A stretch of DNA of 64,000 nucleotides from a virus (taxonomy: Duplodnaviria; Caudoviricetes): IMG/VR virus record IMGVR_UViG_3300044735_000130, positions 6,176-70,175 of that record, one strand, 5' to 3'. The notes below the pieces were generated by a model. It searched no databases. It worked only from the letters and a program-made list of their open reading frames with translations, and had not been told where the DNA came from. A program made the translations under genes and the position numbers. Positions within the stretch are counted from its first letter, which is position 1. Each line of letters opens with the position of its first letter. This document shows positions 1,578 through 55,650 of the stretch, piece after piece.

Positions 1578-1662
1578 TGGGCCCGGCAGGACTCGAACCT
1601 GCACGTCCTTTCGGACAGACCGTATTTGAGACGGCCGCGTCTACCACTTTCACCACGGGCCC
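1578..1662 (-). tRNA. tRNA-Leu(CAA), CCA not encoded
   Basis: Acceptor stem GGGCCCG/CGGGCCC plus A73; anticodon arm GCCGT-CTCAAAT-ACGGT; long variable arm; GGTTCGAGTCC T-arm. Confidence 0.93.
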
Positions 1663-1670
1663 AAGAAACC

Positions 1671-1750
1671 TACACCCGGAGGGACTTGAACCCCCACGCC
1701 ATTGGCACCGGAGCCTAAGGCCGGCGCGTCTTCCCTTCCGCCACGGGCGC
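1671..1750 (-). tRNA. tRNA-Leu(TAG), CCA not encoded
   Basis: Acceptor GCGCCCG/CGGGTGT plus A; anticodon loop CTTAGGC; GGTTCAAGTCC T-arm. Confidence 0.9.
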
Positions 1751-2124: not shown

Positions 2125-2534
2125 TGGTGGACCCGGCGGGAATCGAACCCGCGTCCGTCACGCATTCCTCAATCGCTCCTACACCCATTTCCCTTGTTTT
2201 TTATTCGCCTCCGTACTTCCACAAGGGTGGGCCGTACGCAAGCTATCCCGAGCTTGTCACTCCCGCACGTTCGGGTGCCGCGCGGAAGCTACCCCTTATT
2301 TTATTCCAACCTTTCAGGCCCCAAGGGTAGGGGTCCGAAGGCCGCGTCCCGGGCTTTTAGGCCAGGACGGTTTCCGCGTTTTCCACCGAGGCCACGAGGG
2401 CATCGACTTTGGCGCGGACGGCGGCGGTATAAGCGTCGTCGTGTCTTTTTTCCTCGATGATTAAGGTGGCCAACGAGAAATCCACCGGGTGCAACTCTTG
2501 AATCCTGACCTGCCGTCGAAACCTGGGCGGGCCC
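2125..2534 (-). ncRNA. ssrA: tmRNA, one-piece, 410 nt; tag ORF 2440..2357
   Basis: 5' GGGCCCG..GGTTTCGACG; 3' GGTTCGATTCCCGCCGGGTCC-ACCA; acceptor stem has the G3.U70 Ala determinant; internal ORF ends ...ETVLA-TAA. Confidence 0.93.
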
Positions 2535-6451: not shown

Positions 6452-9400
6452 ATGCGCGGTTTCCTCCGCCGAAAAAACCGCTCCCAAGCTCAGCAGGAAG
6501 TCCGCTTCGAGCAAGACCGTTTTAATAACGGGTATATTGCCGATATCCCCGGAAGCGATCTACCGAAGGACTCCATGGCGCTTCTAGAGAACTTCAACGC
6601 CTATCCCGAATATCTAGAGGGGCGAAGCGGCAGCCAGCTCTACAGCTCAACCGCGCTTCCGGGCACCGGCACCATCCGTTCGCTTTTCCAGCATAAGACA
6701 GCCAAGAAATTTGTCCTGCATCGAGATTCCGGCATTTACATGGCGGACTCGGCTATCAGCTCCTGGACAACTCTTTTATCCTATACCCCGATCCAATCGG
6801 TGTCTCCTTCAGGAGATACGGGCGGCCAGCTCAGTTTATTCTATCTGCAAGGAGTCGACCGATCGAATACTAACAACGGTTTTCTCTACTGGAATCTGAC
6901 GAATTCCGGTGGGACGCGCACGCTTGATCTTTATAGTAATTCGGGCAAAACCACCAAAGTTGCGACCGGATCGATTTCGGGTAATGGGCAAATGCAAATT
7001 ACGTCCGTCAACGCCTCCGGCCTTCAGGGCGTGGTCACGGTGACGTATACCGGAGACGATACGGATAGCGGCAATACCATTTTCTTAACTACTGGGTCCT
7101 CTTATGTACAGGCGGTGGACAGCACGATTTGCCCGTACAAAAACGACTGCATTCTTTTTAGCCAGAATGCTTCCACCACCAATGGCGGCCTTCTTCATCT
7201 TAATCTAACAACCGGAAAGTATGCCGTCTTGAATAGCGCCGGGGCGGCCGTAGGTTATGGATACGGCTATTATCCGCTTAACGGATCGGGAACGCAAAGC
7301 GCCACTACTCCCTATGGATATCGCTACATTTATACCTTCAGTCGGATCACCAATAGCTCGGGGGGCGTGGACACCTCCTTAAACCGTCTGACGGGCAACC
7401 TGGTCTTTGAAAGCCCGAGCAACGCATCGCGCGATCAGACGGGAGCCACCTTTGCCAACGATTACGCGGAATTCTGGCTTGCAAACCCGATTTCCGGATC
7501 GAACAGCAATACCTTCTACATTACCTTTGGCGGCGGAGCGCTTCCGGTTTTTCTTTCCAACTATGCCGAAGGGCATTTTTCGCACATCAGCCTTTACCGG
7601 ACACTGGATATCGGGGTTTCCGGAATCGATCCCGTCACGGGTTCGGGAAATAGCCAAGAGACCTATGTATGGGTCGGAGATTGGCCGATCACCCAGATTC
7701 AGGTGACCGACAATAAGACGGATGCGCAGCTGCGCAGCGCATTGGGGGCAGGGTACGGCATTAAGTCCCGATTCTGGGTTAACCTGCCCAATGGCGCCTG
7801 CGGGGAAGTTGGGAACAATTTCCTTTATACGGCCGCGCGCGCCGCGAATAACATCTACTACTGCCAACTTCTTGATCCGCGGTTTATCGGCTATTACAAT
7901 CCCGCTTTCCAGTTTATGAAACTGGATGATGGTGTCCAGGTGATCGCCAAATCGCCGGACATGATTTCCTTTATCTGTTCGAATAGCACCTACGTCAGCT
8001 CTCCGAATTCTTATGTGGACGCGGGCTCTTCCGTTACAGGCCCGATTTATGTGCTGCAGCACCTGACCAAGGCGTCTGCTAACATTGGCTGCACGGATTA
8101 TGGAAGCTTTGCGCCGGTCGACAGCGCAAATCAGCTAGGCCAGTTCGGACAGGGAGGCGCTACCGCCTTTATTGCCCGCTGCTCGGACAATACCATTCGG
8201 ATTTGGAACAACTCTTATTGGTCCAATGACCTTTCCAGCCGCAGAGTCAATACGATCGTACAGACCATGGTTGCGGGATCGGTTGGAGCCTACTGGAAAG
8301 GCGTCTACCGGCTCTATTACAGAACCAATTCGGGCTACACGACGACCACCAATTGCCTCCGCTTTGGCATGTCCACGGATGGTGGGTTTGGTTGGAGCCA
8401 AGAAAGCGGCGTGGCGCTCCCCCTTCCTCAGACCTATGTTGGGGCGGGCAGCTTTATCGATGCCAACGGCGTGCAGCGGATGTTCTGTCTCGACGCCTCC
8501 GACGGCCTTTTTTACTGGATTGAGACCTTTACCAGCTATTCCGGATCCGGTTTGACCAAGGTTTTCCTGGATAAAGTGGCTGCAAATGGCTCAGGAGGCT
8601 ATACCTTCACCTGTAAAGCGCGCTTCCGCGAGGTTCAGGGCCCCTTGGAAAGCTTGGATTTAATCCATAAGGAAGCGCATATCTTCGATCGGCCCTATGA
8701 TGAATCGGTCGGTTACCCTTCCGGCTTTTCTCGCTCCTACTTGATCTACGCTGACGGCTCCTCCACAGCCTCTGGAACGCTTTCTGGCGTGACCAAAGGC
8801 GCTGATCTGCAGTTTTTCGAGGCCGTTTTGGGCAAGCGCCTTCAACCCGAGGTCCAATTTAATCAATCGGGCGCCCGTCTAACCGGTTTTGAAGCTCTTT
8901 TTGACTCTTTGAACCGCGCGAACATCGGGGGAGGCCCTTCCGCCTATTCGGAGGCGACCTACCAAGCCGATCTGGCGCAGAATTTAAAGATTTGGCTGAC
9001 GCGCCCCTCCAATACACTGAATCGCGCCTCCGGATCCGCCTTCACGCTGACCGGAACCGCTCCGACAAGCGTCTCGGGGCCCGATGGAAAGACCTACGCG
9101 CTTTCTTTTGGTTCGGGAGCCTCCTATTCCCTTGCCGAAACGACCTCTTATAGCAATTTCAGCCTGCACTTCTGGGTCAAGTCGGCGACGGCAGGAAGCC
9201 GTATCCTGCAGATTACAGGAACGAATAGCTTTTACGTCACCTTTGCCAGCAGCACAAGCCTTTCCCTTAATGGCGCCGGCAGCCTGACCGTTTCCACCAT
9301 CGCCTCCGGATGGCATGACTTCTGGATTGTGCGTTCGGGGTCGACGGTAACGGCCTATCAGAATGGCGCCGCGGTTTCCGGAAGCGTCTCGGTCAGCACA

Positions 9401-39605: not shown

Positions 39606-39712
39606 AGGGGGTGCCGCCCAGGGGGCTTGGGACCCCAAGGGCGGCGGATGGATTCAGTCCTCGCAGTTTCGTTGTCAATTTGGAGCAAAGACACTTAAAC
39701 CAAAAGGTAAAC

Positions 39713-51022: not shown

Positions 51023-51672
51023 GTGTTAAAGATCTCCCGGATTTTAAAGATGAGGTTTTGGGCTTGTTCATGGGTGAGGTCGTCAATCGTGATCTTATTA
51101 TACCGGCCGGTGCTGATATCGATTTCGGCGCGGACGCGGTTGGCGTTGTTGGGATCCCGCGGAAGAATGGGCAGGTTGCAACGGCGGTTCTCGACGTATC
51201 GCCGCAGGTCGTCCGGCTTGATCTGCGCTTCGCATATGCGGGCGTAATGCTCCAGTAAGGCCCGATAATCCCTGTCCGCGTTTTCCGCCGCCACCTTTTT
51301 ATCGAGGTGGTGAGCGTATCGTTCCAAGGCTGCCGGCAAGATGCGCTTGGCCAGGCTTTTAGCCGCATCGGTTACGTTTCGGTCGCCATCAACACTAAAG
51401 TTTAAGGCTGGGCCCCCGGAAAAGTCATATCCGGGAGTGCAGTAAGAGGCCGTGATTTTCCGATAGGGGTAATGGCACGAAACCGAAACCCGTGTTCCGT
51501 TGACATGGGTGAGGTAATTGCGATCGTAATCCGCTTGAAGGGAGTATTTCCAATCCGGATTATCCTTGGCCATTTGTTTCGCGATCAGGGTCGCTCTTAG
51601 TTTCCGTTCTTTTTGCTGTCGCTCTTTCTTCTCGCGTTCTAGCCTGCGCTGGTCTTCATAGCTTCCGATCAT
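51019..51672 (-). CDS. Hypothetical early protein
   Basis: Start after AGGAGCAAAGACC (MIGSYEDQRR...). Confidence 0.7.
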   Translation of the reverse strand: MIGSYEDQRRLEREKKERQQKERKLRATLIAKQMAKDNPDWKYSLQADYDRNYLTHVNGTRVSVSCHYPYRKITASYCTPGYDFSGGPALNFSVDGDRNVTDAAKSLAKRILPAALERYAHHLDKKVAAENADRDYRALLEHYARICEAQIKPDDLRRYVENRRCNLPILPRDPNNANRVRAEIDISTGRYNKITIDDLTHEQAQNLIFKIREIFNT

Positions 51673-51784
51673 GGTCTTTGCTCCTAACTGGATTCCCGCC
51701 AGATATGCCCCATCCTTGCAGGGGCCGGGCCTGGGAATCATTCCCCAGGTGCCGCGCCTAAACCGGGCGCGTTCGGCAACTGAT

Positions 51785-51976
51785 TTAGATCCTTTCCATA
51801 TCCAAGCGTTTATTGAATTCCGCAAGGGCGCAATCCGCTATCTCCGCGCATTCTTTGGCCATGGCTTCGGGGGTTTGGCGATTATCCCCATTAGCCATAA
51901 TCGCCGCTTGCATAAACCGTTTCCATTCCATTGCATTTTGGGAGTGAGGGTGGAATTTCGGCATTTCTTGGGCCAT
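51785..51976 (-). CDS. Hypothetical early protein
   Basis: AAAGGA RBS; FMQAAIMANG...A.ECAEIADCALAE. Confidence 0.55.
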   Translation of the reverse strand: MAQEMPKFHPHSQNAMEWKRFMQAAIMANGDNRQTPEAMAKECAEIADCALAEFNKRLDMERI

Positions 51977-51981
51977 AATTA

Positions 51982-52341
51982 TTATCCTTTCGCTTTGGCT
52001 ATAAGTTGGTCGAATCTGTCCAAGATCTTTTTCGATCGATATAACCATGTGACTTCTGTTTTGAGGATGCGTGTAGCTTCCTCCAAGGCGTGTACCAAGT
52101 CGGGAGTCAGAGCAATTAGTTGCATGTTGGCGCGGTCCATTGCTTCCGGATTGTTGGCGAAACCTTGGCAAATCGAATACAGGCCGGCAGGGTTATCTAT
52201 GTCAGTATAAACCGATCTACCGCTTGGATGGGCTTTCCATGGGCCGGGTGTATGCTGGGTTGCGATCCGATCATATAGTTCCGCGGATGCCTCCAAGTCT
52301 TCGGGATCGATTTCATCGGCTTCGGGGTTGTAATTTGGCAT
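51982..52341 (-). CDS. HTPGPW...ANxxLIA family early protein
   Basis: HTPGPWK...ANMQLIALTPDLVHAL. Confidence 0.65.
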   Translation of the reverse strand: MPNYNPEADEIDPEDLEASAELYDRIATQHTPGPWKAHPSGRSVYTDIDNPAGLYSICQGFANNPEAMDRANMQLIALTPDLVHALEEATRILKTEVTWLYRSKKILDRFDQLIAKAKG

Positions 52342-52343
52342 GG

Positions 52344-52763
52344 TTATTTTCCCTGCGCTTTGGCGACGGTTTTCTGTGATTGGCGGAGGGCGCGGAGGGC
52401 CAGCGCGCGCTGATCTCGATGGATCCAGGGGTAATCATAGCCCGGATGATCATTAAACCCGGCCTGTCCGCGTTCGGGTGATGCGCATCCCTCTAGGATG
52501 TTAGAGAGCGCATCATGTAGGGCTTGGCAGGTTTTGAGCAAATTAGGGGCAGCGGCAATTAGACGCATGTTCGCCTTATCTTCATCATTACCCGTGATGA
52601 CTTCGGCGATCAGTTTTAGGCCCGTAGCGGCCTTTCTAGACCATATGCGGGCAAAGTGCCCCATGGGTTCCGCTTCCCAGGGTTCTTGCGTGTGCTTGGA
52701 AAGCTGCTTAATGAATTGGCGCTTTCCAGCCTTGGTGGTGATGGGGTAATCTTTCGTCATCAA
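52344..52763 (-). CDS. HTPGPW...ANxxLIA family early protein
   Basis: HTQEPWE...ANMRLIAAAPNLLKTC. Confidence 0.65.
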   Translation of the reverse strand: MMTKDYPITTKAGKRQFIKQLSKHTQEPWEAEPMGHFARIWSRKAATGLKLIAEVITGNDEDKANMRLIAAAPNLLKTCQALHDALSNILEGCASPERGQAGFNDHPGYDYPWIHRDQRALALRALRQSQKTVAKAQGK

Positions 52764-52969: not shown

Positions 52970-53020
52970 GCCGTCTTAGTCAATCCAGGCCCGCGACGGG
53001 GACGCGCGGCTAGTGGGCCC
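52970..53020 (-). ncRNA. Minimal HDV-like (theta-like) self-cleaving ribozyme
   Basis: P1 GGGCCC/GGGCCU with G.U at +1; P2 GCCG/CGGC; P3 GCG/CGC; L3 UCCCCGU; GG after P1; J4/2 ACUAA; no real P4. Confidence 0.8.
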
Positions 53021-53048
53021 ATATAAGCGGGCGCAAGGCCCGCGCGGG

Positions 53049-53279: not shown

Positions 53280-53366
53280 TTAGGCTTCCTGTTTTAGCGC
53301 CAACCAATAGGCGGCGGGAAAGATGGAAAGGGACAAAGCGAAGTGAATCGGGATTGCGTAGGCCAT
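53280..53366 (-). CDS. 28-aa hydrophobic peptide
   Basis: TAATG overlap; MAYAIPIHFALSLSIFPAAYWLALKQEA. Confidence 0.45.
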   Translation of the reverse strand: MAYAIPIHFALSLSIFPAAYWLALKQEA

Positions 53367-53644: not shown

Positions 53645-53698
53645 GCCCGACGCGGTTTCCCGCGTTTCGGCCGGGCGTGGCCGGCCATCGTCAGGGGC
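53645..53698 (-). ncRNA. Type I hammerhead ribozyme (copy 1)
   Basis: GCCC-CUGACGA-U-GGCCGG(CCACGC)CCGGCC-GAAAC-GCGG(GAAA)CCGC-GUC-GGGC. Confidence 0.9.
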
Positions 53699-54021
53699 TA
53701 AAGCTTAAGCGCCTTCCTTTTTTTGGTCGGGCAGTCCAGGACATCGGGGAATTTCACAATCGAATCCCCTTCGGCCTTGACATAGACCATTCGCCCCGGG
53801 TCCATCGCCGCATGCTTGCGCGATTTCAGGAAGGCGGCGAACTCGGGCCCATCTTCGTTCCCGAGGATGAAAAGGGATAGGCGATGCGTTTTCCCGGCCT
53901 GGTCGGTCACGTGGACGTATTGCGCCGAATCCGAGGTCGGCCGCGCTTCCCGACAAACCGAGGACGCATGGGCGATCGGGCTGAGGATGGCCAGGGACAG
54001 GAAAATAAGCTTGGTTTTCAT
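53698..54021 (-). CDS. Secreted/periplasmic hypothetical protein
   Basis: Signal peptide MKTKLIFLSLAILSPIAHA-S; two Cys. Confidence 0.65.
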   Translation of the reverse strand: MKTKLIFLSLAILSPIAHASSVCREARPTSDSAQYVHVTDQAGKTHRLSLFILGNEDGPEFAAFLKSRKHAAMDPGRMVYVKAEGDSIVKFPDVLDCPTKKRKALKL

Positions 54022-54037
54022 GGTCTTTGCTCCTTTT

Positions 54038-54089
54038 TCTCCCTCTGCATTTCTCCGGGCTTGGGACCGGCCTAGGCTGCATTAAGAGG
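54038..54089 (-). ncRNA. Twister ribozyme, type P1
   Basis: UCU-U^AA-UGCA-GCCUAGGC-CGGUCCCAAGCCCGG-AGAAA-UGCA-GAGGG-AGA. Confidence 0.9.
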
Positions 54090-54109
54090 CCCCTAAAAGG
54101 GGCTTGGGG

Positions 54110-54430
54110 CTAGACTTCGCTTCTAGCTCGGCTAATTGCCGCCTGGGCTTCTATGGCCCAATGCTTGGCCGTATCGGCGCGGTGTTGGCCTTGGCTTCGT
54201 AGCCAATCGGCGCAAGTGGTAAGGGCGCGCTCGGCCGCTTCCAGGGCTGCAAGAGTGGCCGGGGCTTCGGCGATCAAACGGGCGTTATATTCGTCTTCAT
54301 CCGTCCAAGCGGGCAATTTTCCCATGTGGGCCCGGCGTGGACCGTGCAGGGTGAAAAACTTATCCCCGCCCGTTCCATCTTGGAAGGCGTGATACTTGGT
54401 GTGCCAGGGTGCGGGTGTATGCGTTGCCAC
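54110..54430 (-). CDS. HTPGPW...NARLIA family early protein
   Basis: GTG start after AGGAGCAAAGACC; HTPAPW...NARLIAEAPATLAALE. Confidence 0.7.
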   Translation of the reverse strand: MATHTPAPWHTKYHAFQDGTGGDKFFTLHGPRRAHMGKLPAWTDEDEYNARLIAEAPATLAALEAAERALTTCADWLRSQGQHRADTAKHWAIEAQAAISRARSEV

Positions 54431-54451: not shown

Positions 54452-54505
54452 GCCCGACCCGGAATCCCGGGTTTCGGCCCCGCGCTGGGGGCCATCATCA
54501 GGGGC
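54452..54505 (-). ncRNA. Type I hammerhead ribozyme (copy 2)
   Basis: GCCC-CUGAUGA-U-GGCCCC(CAGCGC)GGGGCC-GAAAC-CCGG(GAUU)CCGG-GUC-GGGC. Confidence 0.9.
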
Positions 54506-54508
54506 GAA

Positions 54509-55609
54509 TTACTGGCCGATGCCAATATCCCAGATCGAAACCGGCTGCGGCGCATAGGTGGCGAGCTGCGCGGCCTGGGAGGTTTCCACGGCCCGGAGGA
54601 TGCGGGAAATGTCGTCCTCCATGTCCATCACCTCTACCAAGGTCTGAAGCGCGCGGCCGTTCTTCTCCGCAATGGAGCCGAATAAGACCGCCTTTGCTCG
54701 CCCCTCTTCCTTGCTGATCGTCTCGTCGTGCAGGCGGACGGCTCCCGAGTGGCAAAAGTGTTTGGTTGCGGCATTGTAGGCGTTCCAAGCGGTCGCCGGG
54801 TCAATGCGGCCGCCATCGGCATCCCGCCACAAACGCGCGACGGAATCGGCTTGCTCCTTGGCGTTCTTGGCCCCCTGGGACTCGGTCTTCCCTTCCGCGG
54901 GAAAGAGGCGGAAGAGGTATTCCCGCATATGGTCCTCGGTCACGCGCTTCCGGGCCAGGGCTTGGAAAACGCGCTCGGTCTTGACCAAGCGATCCCCGAT
55001 GATGTGATACGCCCGCTTTGCGGCCCGAAGGCGGTCTTCCGCGCTCTTGGTGTGCGAAATGGCGAATCCATCGTCGGAGCCGTTCAGGGCCCGGGTAAGC
55101 GTGTTGGCGCATACAATGCGGGTGGGGGTCGTAAAATACTTCATGCGGCCGGATCCATCGTGGGCGTTCGCCCAGGTGATCCGCCGTTTTACAACGTCCT
55201 TAAATCCTCCGCGGCCCGTGTCGCCGATGACCATTTCCCCCAGGTCAATCTGAGCCACAGCCACGCGTCCGCCGTCAAAGGTCATTCCACGGGCCATGAC
55301 CATGCCCCCCGCTTCGCCCGCAAAGGCGGACAGGATTTCTACGGCTTCGTCATTCTGGATGGTCGTAAAACGGCTGGACAAGCCCGATCCCAGGATTTCG
55401 CGGGTGTCTTCGCGGTAGACGTCATAAAAGTGCGTGGGCTGGCCGTTAAGGGCGTTCTTATGGTTCACAGTCAAGACCTTGTAATCGAGGCCGTGATCCC
55501 GCATCCACGCGCGGATCCCCTCTTGGGTGTTCAAGGTCTGGCGCTCTTCCTGGCCGAAGTACTTTTCCGTGTCTAAATCAAGGCCGAAAGCGAGGTTACG
55601 GGCGATCAT
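54509..55609 (-). CDS. DUF932 family phage/plasmid protein
   Basis: LDYKV..YREDT..ILG..S.RFT.IQN; FDGGR.A..Q; WANAHDGSG..F.TPTRIVCANTL..AL; AWNAYNA. Confidence 0.88.
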   Translation of the reverse strand: MIARNLAFGLDLDTEKYFGQEERQTLNTQEGIRAWMRDHGLDYKVLTVNHKNALNGQPTHFYDVYREDTREILGSGLSSRFTTIQNDEAVEILSAFAGEAGGMVMARGMTFDGGRVAVAQIDLGEMVIGDTGRGGFKDVVKRRITWANAHDGSGRMKYFTTPTRIVCANTLTRALNGSDDGFAISHTKSAEDRLRAAKRAYHIIGDRLVKTERVFQALARKRVTEDHMREYLFRLFPAEGKTESQGAKNAKEQADSVARLWRDADGGRIDPATAWNAYNAATKHFCHSGAVRLHDETISKEEGRAKAVLFGSIAEKNGRALQTLVEVMDMEDDISRILRAVETSQAAQLATYAPQPVSIWDIGIGQ

Positions 55610-55650
55610 GGTCTTTGCTCCTAGTGAGGGTGGAATTACCCTACGCTCAT

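What the first reader, a model, noticed from the sequence alone, without database searches (positions are those of the whole stretch)
54038..54089. P1 twister ribozyme ending at the RBS
Seen: UAA, P2 UGCA/UGCA, GCC..GC, CGGUCCCAAGCCCGG and GAGGG match the rice twister (UAACACUGCCAAUGCCGGUCCCAAGCCCGGAUAAAAGUGGAGGG as recalled) nearly base for base; P1 is only 3 bp (UCU/AGA). After cutting, the folded ribozyme caps the secreted-protein mRNA a few bases before the SD; the hairpin GCCCC(UUUUA)GGGGC caps the upstream fragment.
Basis: partly seen in the sequence, partly recalled or inferred. Interest (0 to 1): 0.78.

Follow-up and report, generated by a model that had tools for sequence, protein, structure and literature searches.

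The report
Phage twister ribozyme between two genes
This is a genuine copy of a known self-cutting RNA, the twister ribozyme, between two small genes of a soil phage, where together with two hammerhead ribozymes it most likely cuts one long early message into single-gene pieces; it is a clean but ordinary example of a layout described since 2011.

Summary
Window 54037-54088 (minus strand) matches Rfam twister-P1 at 58.0 bits (E 1.8e-10 for the whole window). Every conserved core letter and both pseudoknots are present. The optional P3 stem is replaced by a 5-nt junction, and P1 is 3 bp. The score is below Rfam's cut-off (67.2), but so were all 14 phage twisters I scored (47.9-66.3 bits).

Ten P3-less phage twisters, this one included, show compensatory changes in all five helices. 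The upstream hairpin (54089-54103) is the optional P0 stem: 47 of 49 distinct phage twisters have such a hairpin there, against 12% at random positions.

The window is from a 70-kb soil phage. The twister lies in an 88-nt gap between two same-strand genes. Structurally complete type-I hammerhead motifs fill the gaps on either side. A relative with an 88%-identical secreted protein has that gene promoter-proximal, with no twister before it, and carries hammerhead and type-P5 twisters at other junctions. The ribozymes therefore mark cistron junctions rather than that gene.

Cleavage and end protection are inferred; no RNA data were available. This scan has already noted such operons in at least 82 genomes. 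It is a new member of a known kind.

The parts
54089..54103 (-). P0 hairpin GCCCC-UUUUA-GGGGC. It abuts the P1 5' strand and stays on the 3' end of the upstream cleavage fragment.
   Evidence: Sequence. MFE fold. The same kind of GC-rich hairpin ends no more than 7 nt 5' of the cut in 47 of 49 distinct phage twisters (31 distinct hairpin sequences), against 11.7% of random positions. It is not called as an intrinsic terminator.
54037..54088 (-). Type-P1 twister ribozyme core without P3. P1 is 54085-54087 with 54038-54040. P2 is 54078-54081 with 54046-54049. T2 is G54077 C54076 with G54060 C54059. A 5-nt junction (54071-54075) replaces P3. P4 is 54067-54070 with 54055-54058. T1 is C54063-C54065 with G54041-G54043.
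   Evidence: Rfam RF03160, 58.0 bits, full model. Covariation of these helices in 10 P3-less phage twisters. Definitions of P1-P4, T1 and T2 from PMC5408937.
54083..54084 (-). Predicted scissile bond, U54084 / A54083. The expected products are an upstream piece ending in U with a 2',3'-cyclic phosphate and a downstream piece starting with 5'-OH A.
   Evidence: Position of the U-A step of junction J1-2 in the Rfam alignment. Chemistry from PMC8782182 and PMC5408937. Not tested experimentally.
54022..54033 (-). SD plus spacer GGAGCAAAGACC before the AUG at 54021. The 11-mer GGAGCAAAGAC occurs 8 times in the window.
   Evidence: 8 exact copies, against 1.1 expected even allowing one mismatch. The copies at 55611, 54432, 54023 and 53622 precede four consecutive genes of this operon.
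53698..54021 (-). Downstream gene: a 107-aa protein with a signal-peptide-like N-terminus and no family match.
   Evidence: ORF. No Pfam or PHROG match. An 88%-identical homologue lies on other soil contigs.
54110..54430 (-). Upstream gene: a 106-aa protein of phrog_1273, with two paralogues further down the operon.
   Evidence: phrog_1273, E 7.9e-10; the paralogues at 52344-52763 and 51982-52341 hit the same family.
54452..54505 (-). Context: type-I hammerhead motif in the junction between DUF932 and the 106-aa gene.
   Evidence: A descriptor (stem I, CUGANGA, stem II, GAAA, stem III, UH, stem I) finds exactly two hits in the window and none in 200 shuffles. The MFE fold is the three-way junction. 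There is no Rfam hit. The core carries an extra U after A9.
53645..53698 (-). Context: second type-I hammerhead motif, overlapping the TAG of the 107-aa gene.
   Evidence: z -2.4. Relative to the other copy it has 3 base pairs changed on both sides. A hammerhead occupies the same place after the homologous gene in L070.
54509..55609 (-). First gene of the operon: a DUF932 protein of 366 aa.
   Evidence: Pfam PF06067, E 1.7e-33. phrog_1221.

Best explanation
This is a functional type-P1 twister self-cleaving ribozyme (P0 present, P3 absent, P1 of 3 bp) in an early leftward operon of a 70-kb soil phage. As RNA polymerase transcribes the gap between the 106-aa gene and the 107-aa gene, the RNA folds into the double-pseudoknot twister and cuts itself between U54084 and A54083. 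The upstream piece ends in the P0 hairpin followed by CUCUU with a 2',3'-cyclic phosphate. The downstream piece starts with a 5'-OH adenosine buried in the compact twister fold, followed 4 nt later by the SD and the 107-aa gene. With the two hammerheads in the neighbouring gaps, this cuts the polycistronic message into single-gene mRNAs. Their stability and translation are then independent of their neighbours. Status of each step: the motif, its place and its family-level covariation are shown. Cleavage in vivo, protection of the two new ends, and any effect on expression are inferred.
For: Rfam twister-P1 scores 58.0 bits over the full model, E 1.8e-10 for the window. All strongly conserved letters are present and T1, T2, P2 and P4 are complementary (definitions in PMC5408937).

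P3 is optional: present in 78% of twisters (PMC6154101) and replaced by a short junction in about 20% (PMC5408937). P1 is dispensable for cleavage (PMC5408937). All 14 phage twister-P1 hits scored fell below Rfam's cut-off, and the P3-less ones scored 47.9-58.0 bits.

In 10 P3-less phage twisters, this one included, 96.5% of cells pair. Nine of 17 pairs have changes on both sides, in all five helices. No shuffle of 500 reached the observed value on four of five measures (7 of 500 on the fifth), and slid controls pair at 24-48%.

A P0-like hairpin occurs in 47 of 49 phage twisters against 11.7% at random positions. About 44 of 51 phage twisters have an SD-preceded start within 45 nt downstream.

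The genes on both sides are on the same strand, the gap is 88 nt, and no sigma-70-like promoter or intrinsic terminator is called in it. Hammerhead motifs sit at the two adjacent junctions. The relative L070 also has ribozymes at its junctions.

Published precedent: clustered hammerheads flank single genes in prophages and cleave in vitro and in vivo (PMC3088659). Processing of polycistronic transcripts has been proposed for bacterial twisters (PMC6765202). An engineered analogue exists: a self-cleaving insulator that leaves a 5' hairpin raised transcript about 2-fold and protein 2- to 10-fold in E. coli (PMC6206723).
Against: There is no experimental or RNA evidence for cleavage of this copy. 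The score is below Rfam's gathering threshold, and P1 has only 3 pairs plus a C.A mismatch. The nested MFE energy is not exceptional (z -1.2 to -1.4), although pseudoknots are not modelled. No close relative carries a twister at the same junction, so there is no locus-specific covariation. The host is unknown, so which RNases would be blocked by a 5'-OH, a 2',3'-cyclic phosphate or the flanking folds cannot be said. In Bacillus the glmS ribozyme's 5'-OH product is targeted rather than protected (my recollection of Collins et al. 2007, which PMC6765202 lists as its reference 22).
Confidence: 0.75

Rival explanations
1. Translation switch. Before cleavage the SD leader of the 107-aa gene is held by pairing with the stop-codon region of the upstream gene. 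Cleavage releases the upstream piece and frees the SD, so the ribozyme's main role is to activate translation rather than to change stability.
For: The MFE fold of 54015-54115 pairs GUCU.GC.CC (54115-54106) with GG.GC..AGAC in the SD leader around the twister. The same leader follows every ribozyme of the operon.
Against: The pairing is short and interrupted, and the fold is not better than shuffles (z -1.38, 21 of 200 as good). An equivalent pairing is not evident at the hammerhead junctions. The same leader is also used by promoter-proximal genes with no ribozyme (47797, 55611).
Confidence: 0.08
2. Inactive relic or purely structural spacer. The sequence keeps the twister shape but does not cut at a useful rate, because P1 is too short and carries a mismatch. 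It acts only as a structured intergenic element.
For: The score is below Rfam's cut-off. P1 is 3 bp. There is no direct evidence of cleavage.
Against: No conserved core letter is changed. P1-less twisters cleave at almost wild-type rate (PMC5408937). A 3-bp P1 is the commonest length in the phage set. The outermost P1 pair is unpaired in 3 of 10 P3-less copies.
Confidence: 0.1
3. Circular mRNA. The 107-aa gene is bracketed by a twister (5') and a hammerhead (3'). The excised RNA would therefore have a 5'-OH and a 2',3'-cyclic phosphate, the substrates of an RtcB-type ligase, and could be closed into a circle.
For: The bracketing geometry. The end chemistry of both ribozyme classes (PMC8782182).
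Against: The phage has no RtcB gene. I saw no pairing that would bring the two ends together. Perreault et al. looked for circular or spliced products at clustered hammerheads and found none (PMC3088659).
Confidence: 0.03

Closest known systems
Type-P1 twister ribozyme (Rfam RF03160; class of Roth et al. 2014), P3-less form as in the Oryza sativa Osa-1-4 ribozyme (PDB 4OJI)
   Same: It has the same conserved core, P1-P2-P4 stems, T1 and T2 pseudoknots and U-A cut site, with a short junction in place of P3.
   Different: It scores below Rfam's cut-off. It carries the optional P0 hairpin. It comes from a soil phage rather than a plant or a Clostridium-type bacterium. This copy has no biochemical test.
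Clustered hammerhead ribozymes flanking single genes in prophages (Perreault et al. 2011, PMC3088659)
   Same: Several self-cleaving ribozymes sit in successive intergenic gaps of one phage operon, implying that a long transcript is processed into gene-length mRNAs.
   Different: Here two classes are mixed (twister plus type-I hammerheads). A relative uses type-P5 twisters at other junctions.
Twister arrays in other uncultured phages (IMG/VR loci L011, L064, L034, L015 and others)
   Same: The module is the same: stop codon, P0 hairpin, twister, SD, start codon. There are up to three copies per few kb on one strand.
   Different: No gene of this operon is shared with those phages.
Synthetic ribozyme insulators such as RiboJ (PMC6206723)
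   Same: A self-cleaving ribozyme removes the upstream RNA, leaving a structured 5' end and a standard leader before the RBS. Transcript and protein levels rise.
   Different: RiboJ is an engineered hammerhead-type part placed after a promoter. The element here is natural, is a twister, and lies between cistrons.

Membership tests
Twister ribozyme, type P1 (RF03160) | Score at or above the family's curated gathering threshold (67.2 bits) | tested here: not met
   The score is 58.0 bits. The threshold is not discriminating for phage copies: all 14 phage twister-P1 hits scored lie at 47.9-66.3 bits, including copies with P3. E is 1.8e-10 for the window.
Twister ribozyme, type P1 (RF03160) | Strongly conserved nucleotides of L1 and L4 (UAA; GC of L2; GGUCCCAAGCC of P4-L4; AAA; GAGGG) | tested here: met
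   All are identical to the Rfam consensus in the cmscan alignment. They are invariant or nearly so across 10 P3-less phage twisters.
Twister ribozyme, type P1 (RF03160) | Essential stems P1, P2 and P4 (PMC5408937) | tested here: met
   P2 is UGCA/UGCA (4 bp), P4 is CCGG/CCGG (4 bp) and P1 is UCU/AGA (3 bp plus a C.A mismatch). The pairs covary in the subclass.
Twister ribozyme, type P1 (RF03160) | Double pseudoknot: T1 (CCC of L4 with GGG of L1) and T2 (GC of L2 with GC of L4) | tested here: met
   Complementary in this copy. Each has one compensatory double change among the 10 aligned copies, and 100% of cells pair.
Twister ribozyme, type P1 (RF03160) | Ends of the motif in P1 (type P1), with the cut 5' of the conserved A next to P1 | tested here: met
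   The order of elements in the Rfam alignment places the cut at U54084/A54083.
Twister ribozyme, type P1 (RF03160) | Site-specific self-cleavage giving a 2',3'-cyclic phosphate and a 5'-OH | not testable with these tools
   This needs in vitro transcription or end-specific RNA-seq.
Ribozyme-punctuated phage operon (Perreault et al. 2011) | Two or more self-cleaving ribozyme motifs in successive same-strand intergenic gaps of a phage operon | tested here: met
   The twister and two type-I hammerhead motifs lie in three consecutive gaps of 78, 88 and 77 nt. The record is a virus with direct terminal repeats.
Hammerhead ribozyme (Rfam Hammerhead_1 and relatives), for the two neighbouring motifs | Match to an Rfam hammerhead model | tested here: not met
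   No hammerhead family is reported at E up to 10. The canonical core and three stems are present by descriptor, with an extra U after A9. Their activity is unproven.

The most novel reading that the evidence does not exclude
The phage may run a natural 'insulator' scheme. Every cistron that begins a processed or primary mRNA carries the same SD leader, GGAGCAAAGAC (8 exact copies in the window). A self-cleaving ribozyme of whichever class removes the upstream RNA just before it. Translation of each early gene would then be set by a standard 5' end and be independent of its neighbours. The relative L070 does the same with its own leader (AGGAGAATAG, 5 copies) and with different ribozyme classes at the junctions. 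That would show that the ribozyme classes are interchangeable parts of one processing module.
Probability: 0.2. Interest if true: 0.5.

Novelty: new member of a known kind. Interest (0 to 1): 0.22.

Why it matters
Why bacteria and phages place self-cleaving ribozymes between genes is still unresolved (PMC6765202). This locus adds no new class or new layout. It is, however, compact and well defined: three ribozymes of two classes lie in 900 bases, each followed by the same ribosome-binding leader. A relative has the same secreted-protein gene next to a hammerhead but with different neighbours and type-P5 twisters. That makes it a convenient natural construct for testing whether cleavage, the retained P0 hairpin or the retained twister fold changes the stability or translation of the flanking messages. 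In practice it also shows that Rfam's twister-P1 threshold misses phage copies.

Tried and rejected
- **Close relatives by protein.** The search for related loci with the 107-aa and DUF932 proteins found nothing in viral contigs or metagenome contigs. An alignment-based search gave one 25%-identical DUF932 locus of no use. The 106-aa protein has no homologue beyond itself in the word-indexed search.
- **RNA evidence.** No RNA holder is listed for this stretch, so cleavage in vivo could not be examined.
- **DNA contigs laid on the region.** A second strain's 3.1-kb contig covers 53888-55700 with 41 differences, all inside the DUF932 gene (54520-55554). The twister is identical, but so are the whole 106-aa gene and hammerhead J1. 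This says nothing specific about constraint on the ribozyme.
- **Other ribozymes by Rfam.** I accept the hammerheads on descriptor evidence only. The HDV-like candidate at 52970-53048 is left unsupported (fold z +0.38).
- **Type-P5 twister model on the phage.** It gives only a weak echo of the same locus.
- **P0 as an intrinsic terminator.** Rejected: it is not called, and the following sequence is P1 plus UAAUGCAGCC in all copies.
- **Shared genes with other twister-bearing phages.** None apart from the L070 group.
- **RtcB in the phage.** Absent.
- **Primary papers.** Those of Roth 2014, Weinberg 2015 and Felletti 2017 are not held in the library. What I say of them comes from reviews or from memory and is marked as such.
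- **The recalled rice twister sequence.** It could not be checked against a tool-supplied sequence.

Full report
**What is in the sequence**

On the minus strand, 54115 to 54019 reads as follows. First comes the stop codon of a 106-aa gene (TAG, 54112-54110). Seven bases later comes a hairpin, GCCCC-UUUUA-GGGGC (54103-54089). Then follows CUCU-UAA-UGCA-GC-CUAGG-CCGGUCCCAAGCCCGG-AGAAA-UGCA-GAGGG-AGAA (54088-54037). After four A's comes GGAG (54033-54030), and eight bases later the AUG (54021) of a 107-aa gene.

**Is it a twister?**

The default Rfam scan at gathering thresholds lists only a tmRNA and two tRNAs. With E-value reporting, RF03160 (type-P1 twister) matches 54037-54088 on the minus strand over the whole model at 58.0 bits. 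E is 6.7e-13 for the local search and 1.8e-10 for the whole window against all families. The next best hit in the neighbourhood is noise. The alignment is identical to the consensus at every capitalised position. The only loss is the P3 hairpin, replaced by CUAGG.

According to the review of Gebetsberger and Micura (PMC5408937):
- P1, P2 and P4 are the essential stems, and P0, P3 and P5 are optional.
- P3 is replaced by a short junction in about 20% of twisters, as in the crystallised rice ribozyme.
- T2 pairs the conserved GC of L2 with two bulged bases of L4.
- T1 pairs three L4 bases with L1.

In this copy those pairs are:
- T2: G54077-C54059 and C54076-G54060.
- T1: C54065-G54041, C54064-G54042 and C54063-G54043.
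- P2: four pairs, 54081-54078 with 54046-54049.
- P4: four pairs, 54070-54067 with 54055-54058.
- P1: U54087-A54038, C54086-G54039 and U54085-A54040, with a C54088.A54037 mismatch outside.

The cut is predicted between U54084 and A54083.

**The sub-threshold score and the short P1**

I scanned IMG/VR for the P4-L4 core followed by GAGGG and found 67 viral contigs. Rfam scoring of eight of these loci gave 14 twister-P1 hits, all below the 67.2-bit cut-off (47.9-66.3 bits). The P3-less hits scored 47.9-58.0 bits, so the window's copy is at the top of its subclass.

An alignment of ten P3-less phage twisters, this one included, was tested against the five-helix structure with both pseudoknots. 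In it, 96.5% of cells pair, and nine of 17 pairs show changes on both sides, at least one in every helix. No shuffle of 500 reached the observed value on four of the five measures, and 7 of 500 did on the fifth (further pair types). Sliding the partners drops pairing to 24-48%.

P1 is 3 bp in the largest group of phage twisters, and its outermost pair is unpaired in 3 of the 10 aligned copies. In vitro, twisters lacking P1 cleave at almost wild-type rate (PMC5408937).

**The hairpin**

In 47 of 49 distinct phage twisters (31 different hairpin sequences), a GC-rich hairpin of at least 5 bp ends within 7 nt 5' of the cut, usually directly against P1. At random positions of the same loci the figure is 11.7%. 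This is the optional P0 stem, which reviews list as present in 21% of all twisters (PMC6154101). Its position 5' of P1 is from my memory of the consensus figure, and it agrees with this survey. It is not followed by a U tract and is not called as a terminator.

**Context**

The window is part of a 70,175-bp IMG/VR virus record with direct terminal repeats, assembled from soil or rhizosphere metagenomes. The twister lies in a leftward operon opposite a terminase-like gene. Reading along the minus strand, the operon is:
- DUF932 protein (55609-54509)
- a 78-nt gap
- the 106-aa phrog_1273 protein (54430-54110)
- an 88-nt gap holding P0 and the twister
- the 107-aa signal-peptide protein (54021-53698)
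- a 77-nt gap
- an 84-aa protein (53620-53366), and so on.

Rfam reports nothing in the two flanking gaps. A plain hammerhead descriptor (stem I, CUGANGA, stem II, GAAA, stem III, U-H, stem I) finds exactly two hits in the 64-kb window, at 54505-54452 and 53698-53645, both on the minus strand. It finds none in 200 shuffled windows. Their MFE folds are the three-way junction. The two copies differ by three base pairs changed on both sides. Both have an extra U after A9, so their activity is less certain than the twister's.

No sigma-70-like promoter or intrinsic terminator is called inside the gaps. This fits one transcript, although the host's promoter type is unknown.

**A relative**

The 107-aa protein has an 88%-identical homologue on other soil contigs. 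In that phage (L070) the gene is the first of the operon, behind a 520-bp promoter-type region with no twister. It is followed by a hammerhead that overlaps its TAG exactly as in the window. Next comes a DUF932 gene only 38% identical. After that come two type-P5 twisters above Rfam's cut-off, at 42.8 and 46.5 bits against a threshold of 37.6.

The twister is therefore not tied to the secreted-protein gene. Ribozymes, of whichever class, occupy the junctions between cistrons that are not translationally coupled. This agrees with the published picture. Multiple hammerheads flank single genes in prophages and cleave in vitro and in vivo (PMC3088659). Bacterial twisters share gene neighbourhoods with hammerheads and are suspected of processing polycistronic transcripts, with the purpose still undefined (PMC6765202).

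**Mechanism and its status**

Shown: the motif, its fold-compatible covariation in the subclass, its place between two same-strand genes, the P0 hairpin, and the close spacing to the SD.

Inferred: co-transcriptional cleavage at U54084/A54083. The upstream mRNA would then end in P0 plus CUCUU with a 2',3'-cyclic phosphate. The downstream mRNA would begin with a 5'-OH A inside the folded twister, 4 nt before the SD.

About 44 of 51 phage twisters surveyed have an SD-preceded start within 45 nt. A synthetic ribozyme insulator that leaves a 5' hairpin raises transcript and protein levels in E. coli (PMC6206723). But at the two hammerhead junctions of this same operon the downstream mRNA starts with an unstructured leader of about 28 nt, so a folded 5' end is not the common denominator. 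What all three junctions share is the cut, a structured 3' end on the upstream piece (P0, or hammerhead stems II and III), and the same leader, GGAGCAAAGAC(C/U)-AUG/GUG. That leader occurs eight times in the window, against 1.1 expected. L070 has its own repeated leader.

I rate the identity of the element at well over 0.9, cleavage in vivo at about 0.8, and the end-protection or uncoupling function at about 0.5.

**Rivals**

- A translation switch through pairing of the SD leader with the upstream stop region appears in the MFE fold, but is weak and not significant.
- An inactive relic is unlikely, given the intact core.
- A circular mRNA from the twister-hammerhead bracket has no support. 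The phage has no RtcB, and none was found in earlier work on clustered hammerheads (PMC3088659).

**Novelty**

This is a new member of a known kind. The points worth keeping are practical. Rfam's twister-P1 threshold misses phage copies. P0 is near-universal in phage type-P1 twisters. Related phages place different ribozyme classes at comparable junctions of the same kind of early operon.

Noticed in passing
window 38740, 39682 (+); 47797, 51674, 53622, 54023, 54432, 55611 (-): The 11-mer GGAGCAAAGAC occurs 8 times exactly, against 1.1 expected with one mismatch allowed. Seven copies sit 0-1 nt before an ATG or GTG, at genes that follow a ribozyme, a structured gap or a promoter-like region. 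The copy at 39682 is 21 nt from the next ATG. The relative L070 has its own repeated leader, AGGAGAATAG, 5 times.
   Followed up: partly
window 53280-53366 (-); L070 about 6785-6874 (+): An uncalled 28-aa hydrophobic peptide gene (MAYAIPIHFALSLSIFPAAYWLALKQEA) overlaps the stop of the 84-aa gene (TAATG). A 30-aa counterpart ending in PAAYWLALKQEHAK lies in the relative. This 'gap' is therefore coding, not a ribozyme junction.
   Followed up: partly
Its nested fold is no better than shuffles (z +0.38). A G.U-closed P1 (GGGCCC/GGGCCU) and a GG after it can be drawn by eye, but I did not verify a full HDV-like fold.
   Followed up: partly
window 51685-51787 (-): A gap of about 100 nt, GC-rich with several hairpins, lies between a small gene and the next copy of the standard leader (the true start of the downstream gene is probably the ATG at 51671, not the TTG at 51825). 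No Rfam match; fold z -0.7. It may be another processing element or only a spacer.
   Followed up: partly
window 39612-39646 (+): A long hairpin after a plus-strand gene contains GGGCTTGGGACC, the exact reverse complement of the twister L4 core GGTCCCAAGCCC (about 0.01 expected by chance in the window). No twister model matches on either strand, and no GAGGG or UAA partner is seen. Unexplained.
   Followed up: partly
L070 5593-5661 and 7264-7320 (+); L070 4315-4379 (+): The related soil phage carries two type-P5 twisters above Rfam's cut-off and a canonical type-I hammerhead (no extra U) overlapping the TAG of the secreted-protein homologue. After its DUF932 gene it has a twister where the window has a hammerhead.
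   Followed up: yes
window 2125-2534 (-), 1578-1750 (-): A full-length tmRNA (124.8 bits) and two tRNAs lie in a virus record with terminal repeats, so the tmRNA is phage-borne.
   Followed up: no
window 54110-54430, 52344-52763, 51982-52341 (-): Three paralogous small proteins of phrog_1273 (P-x-P-W near the N-terminus, LIA-x-AP in the middle) lie in one operon. Their function is unknown.
   Followed up: no
IMG/VR loci L011, L064, L034, L015, L021, L029, L042, L032, L051: Other uncultured phages carry two or three type-P1 twisters on one strand within a few kb. All scored copies are below Rfam's gathering threshold for RF03160.
   Followed up: partly
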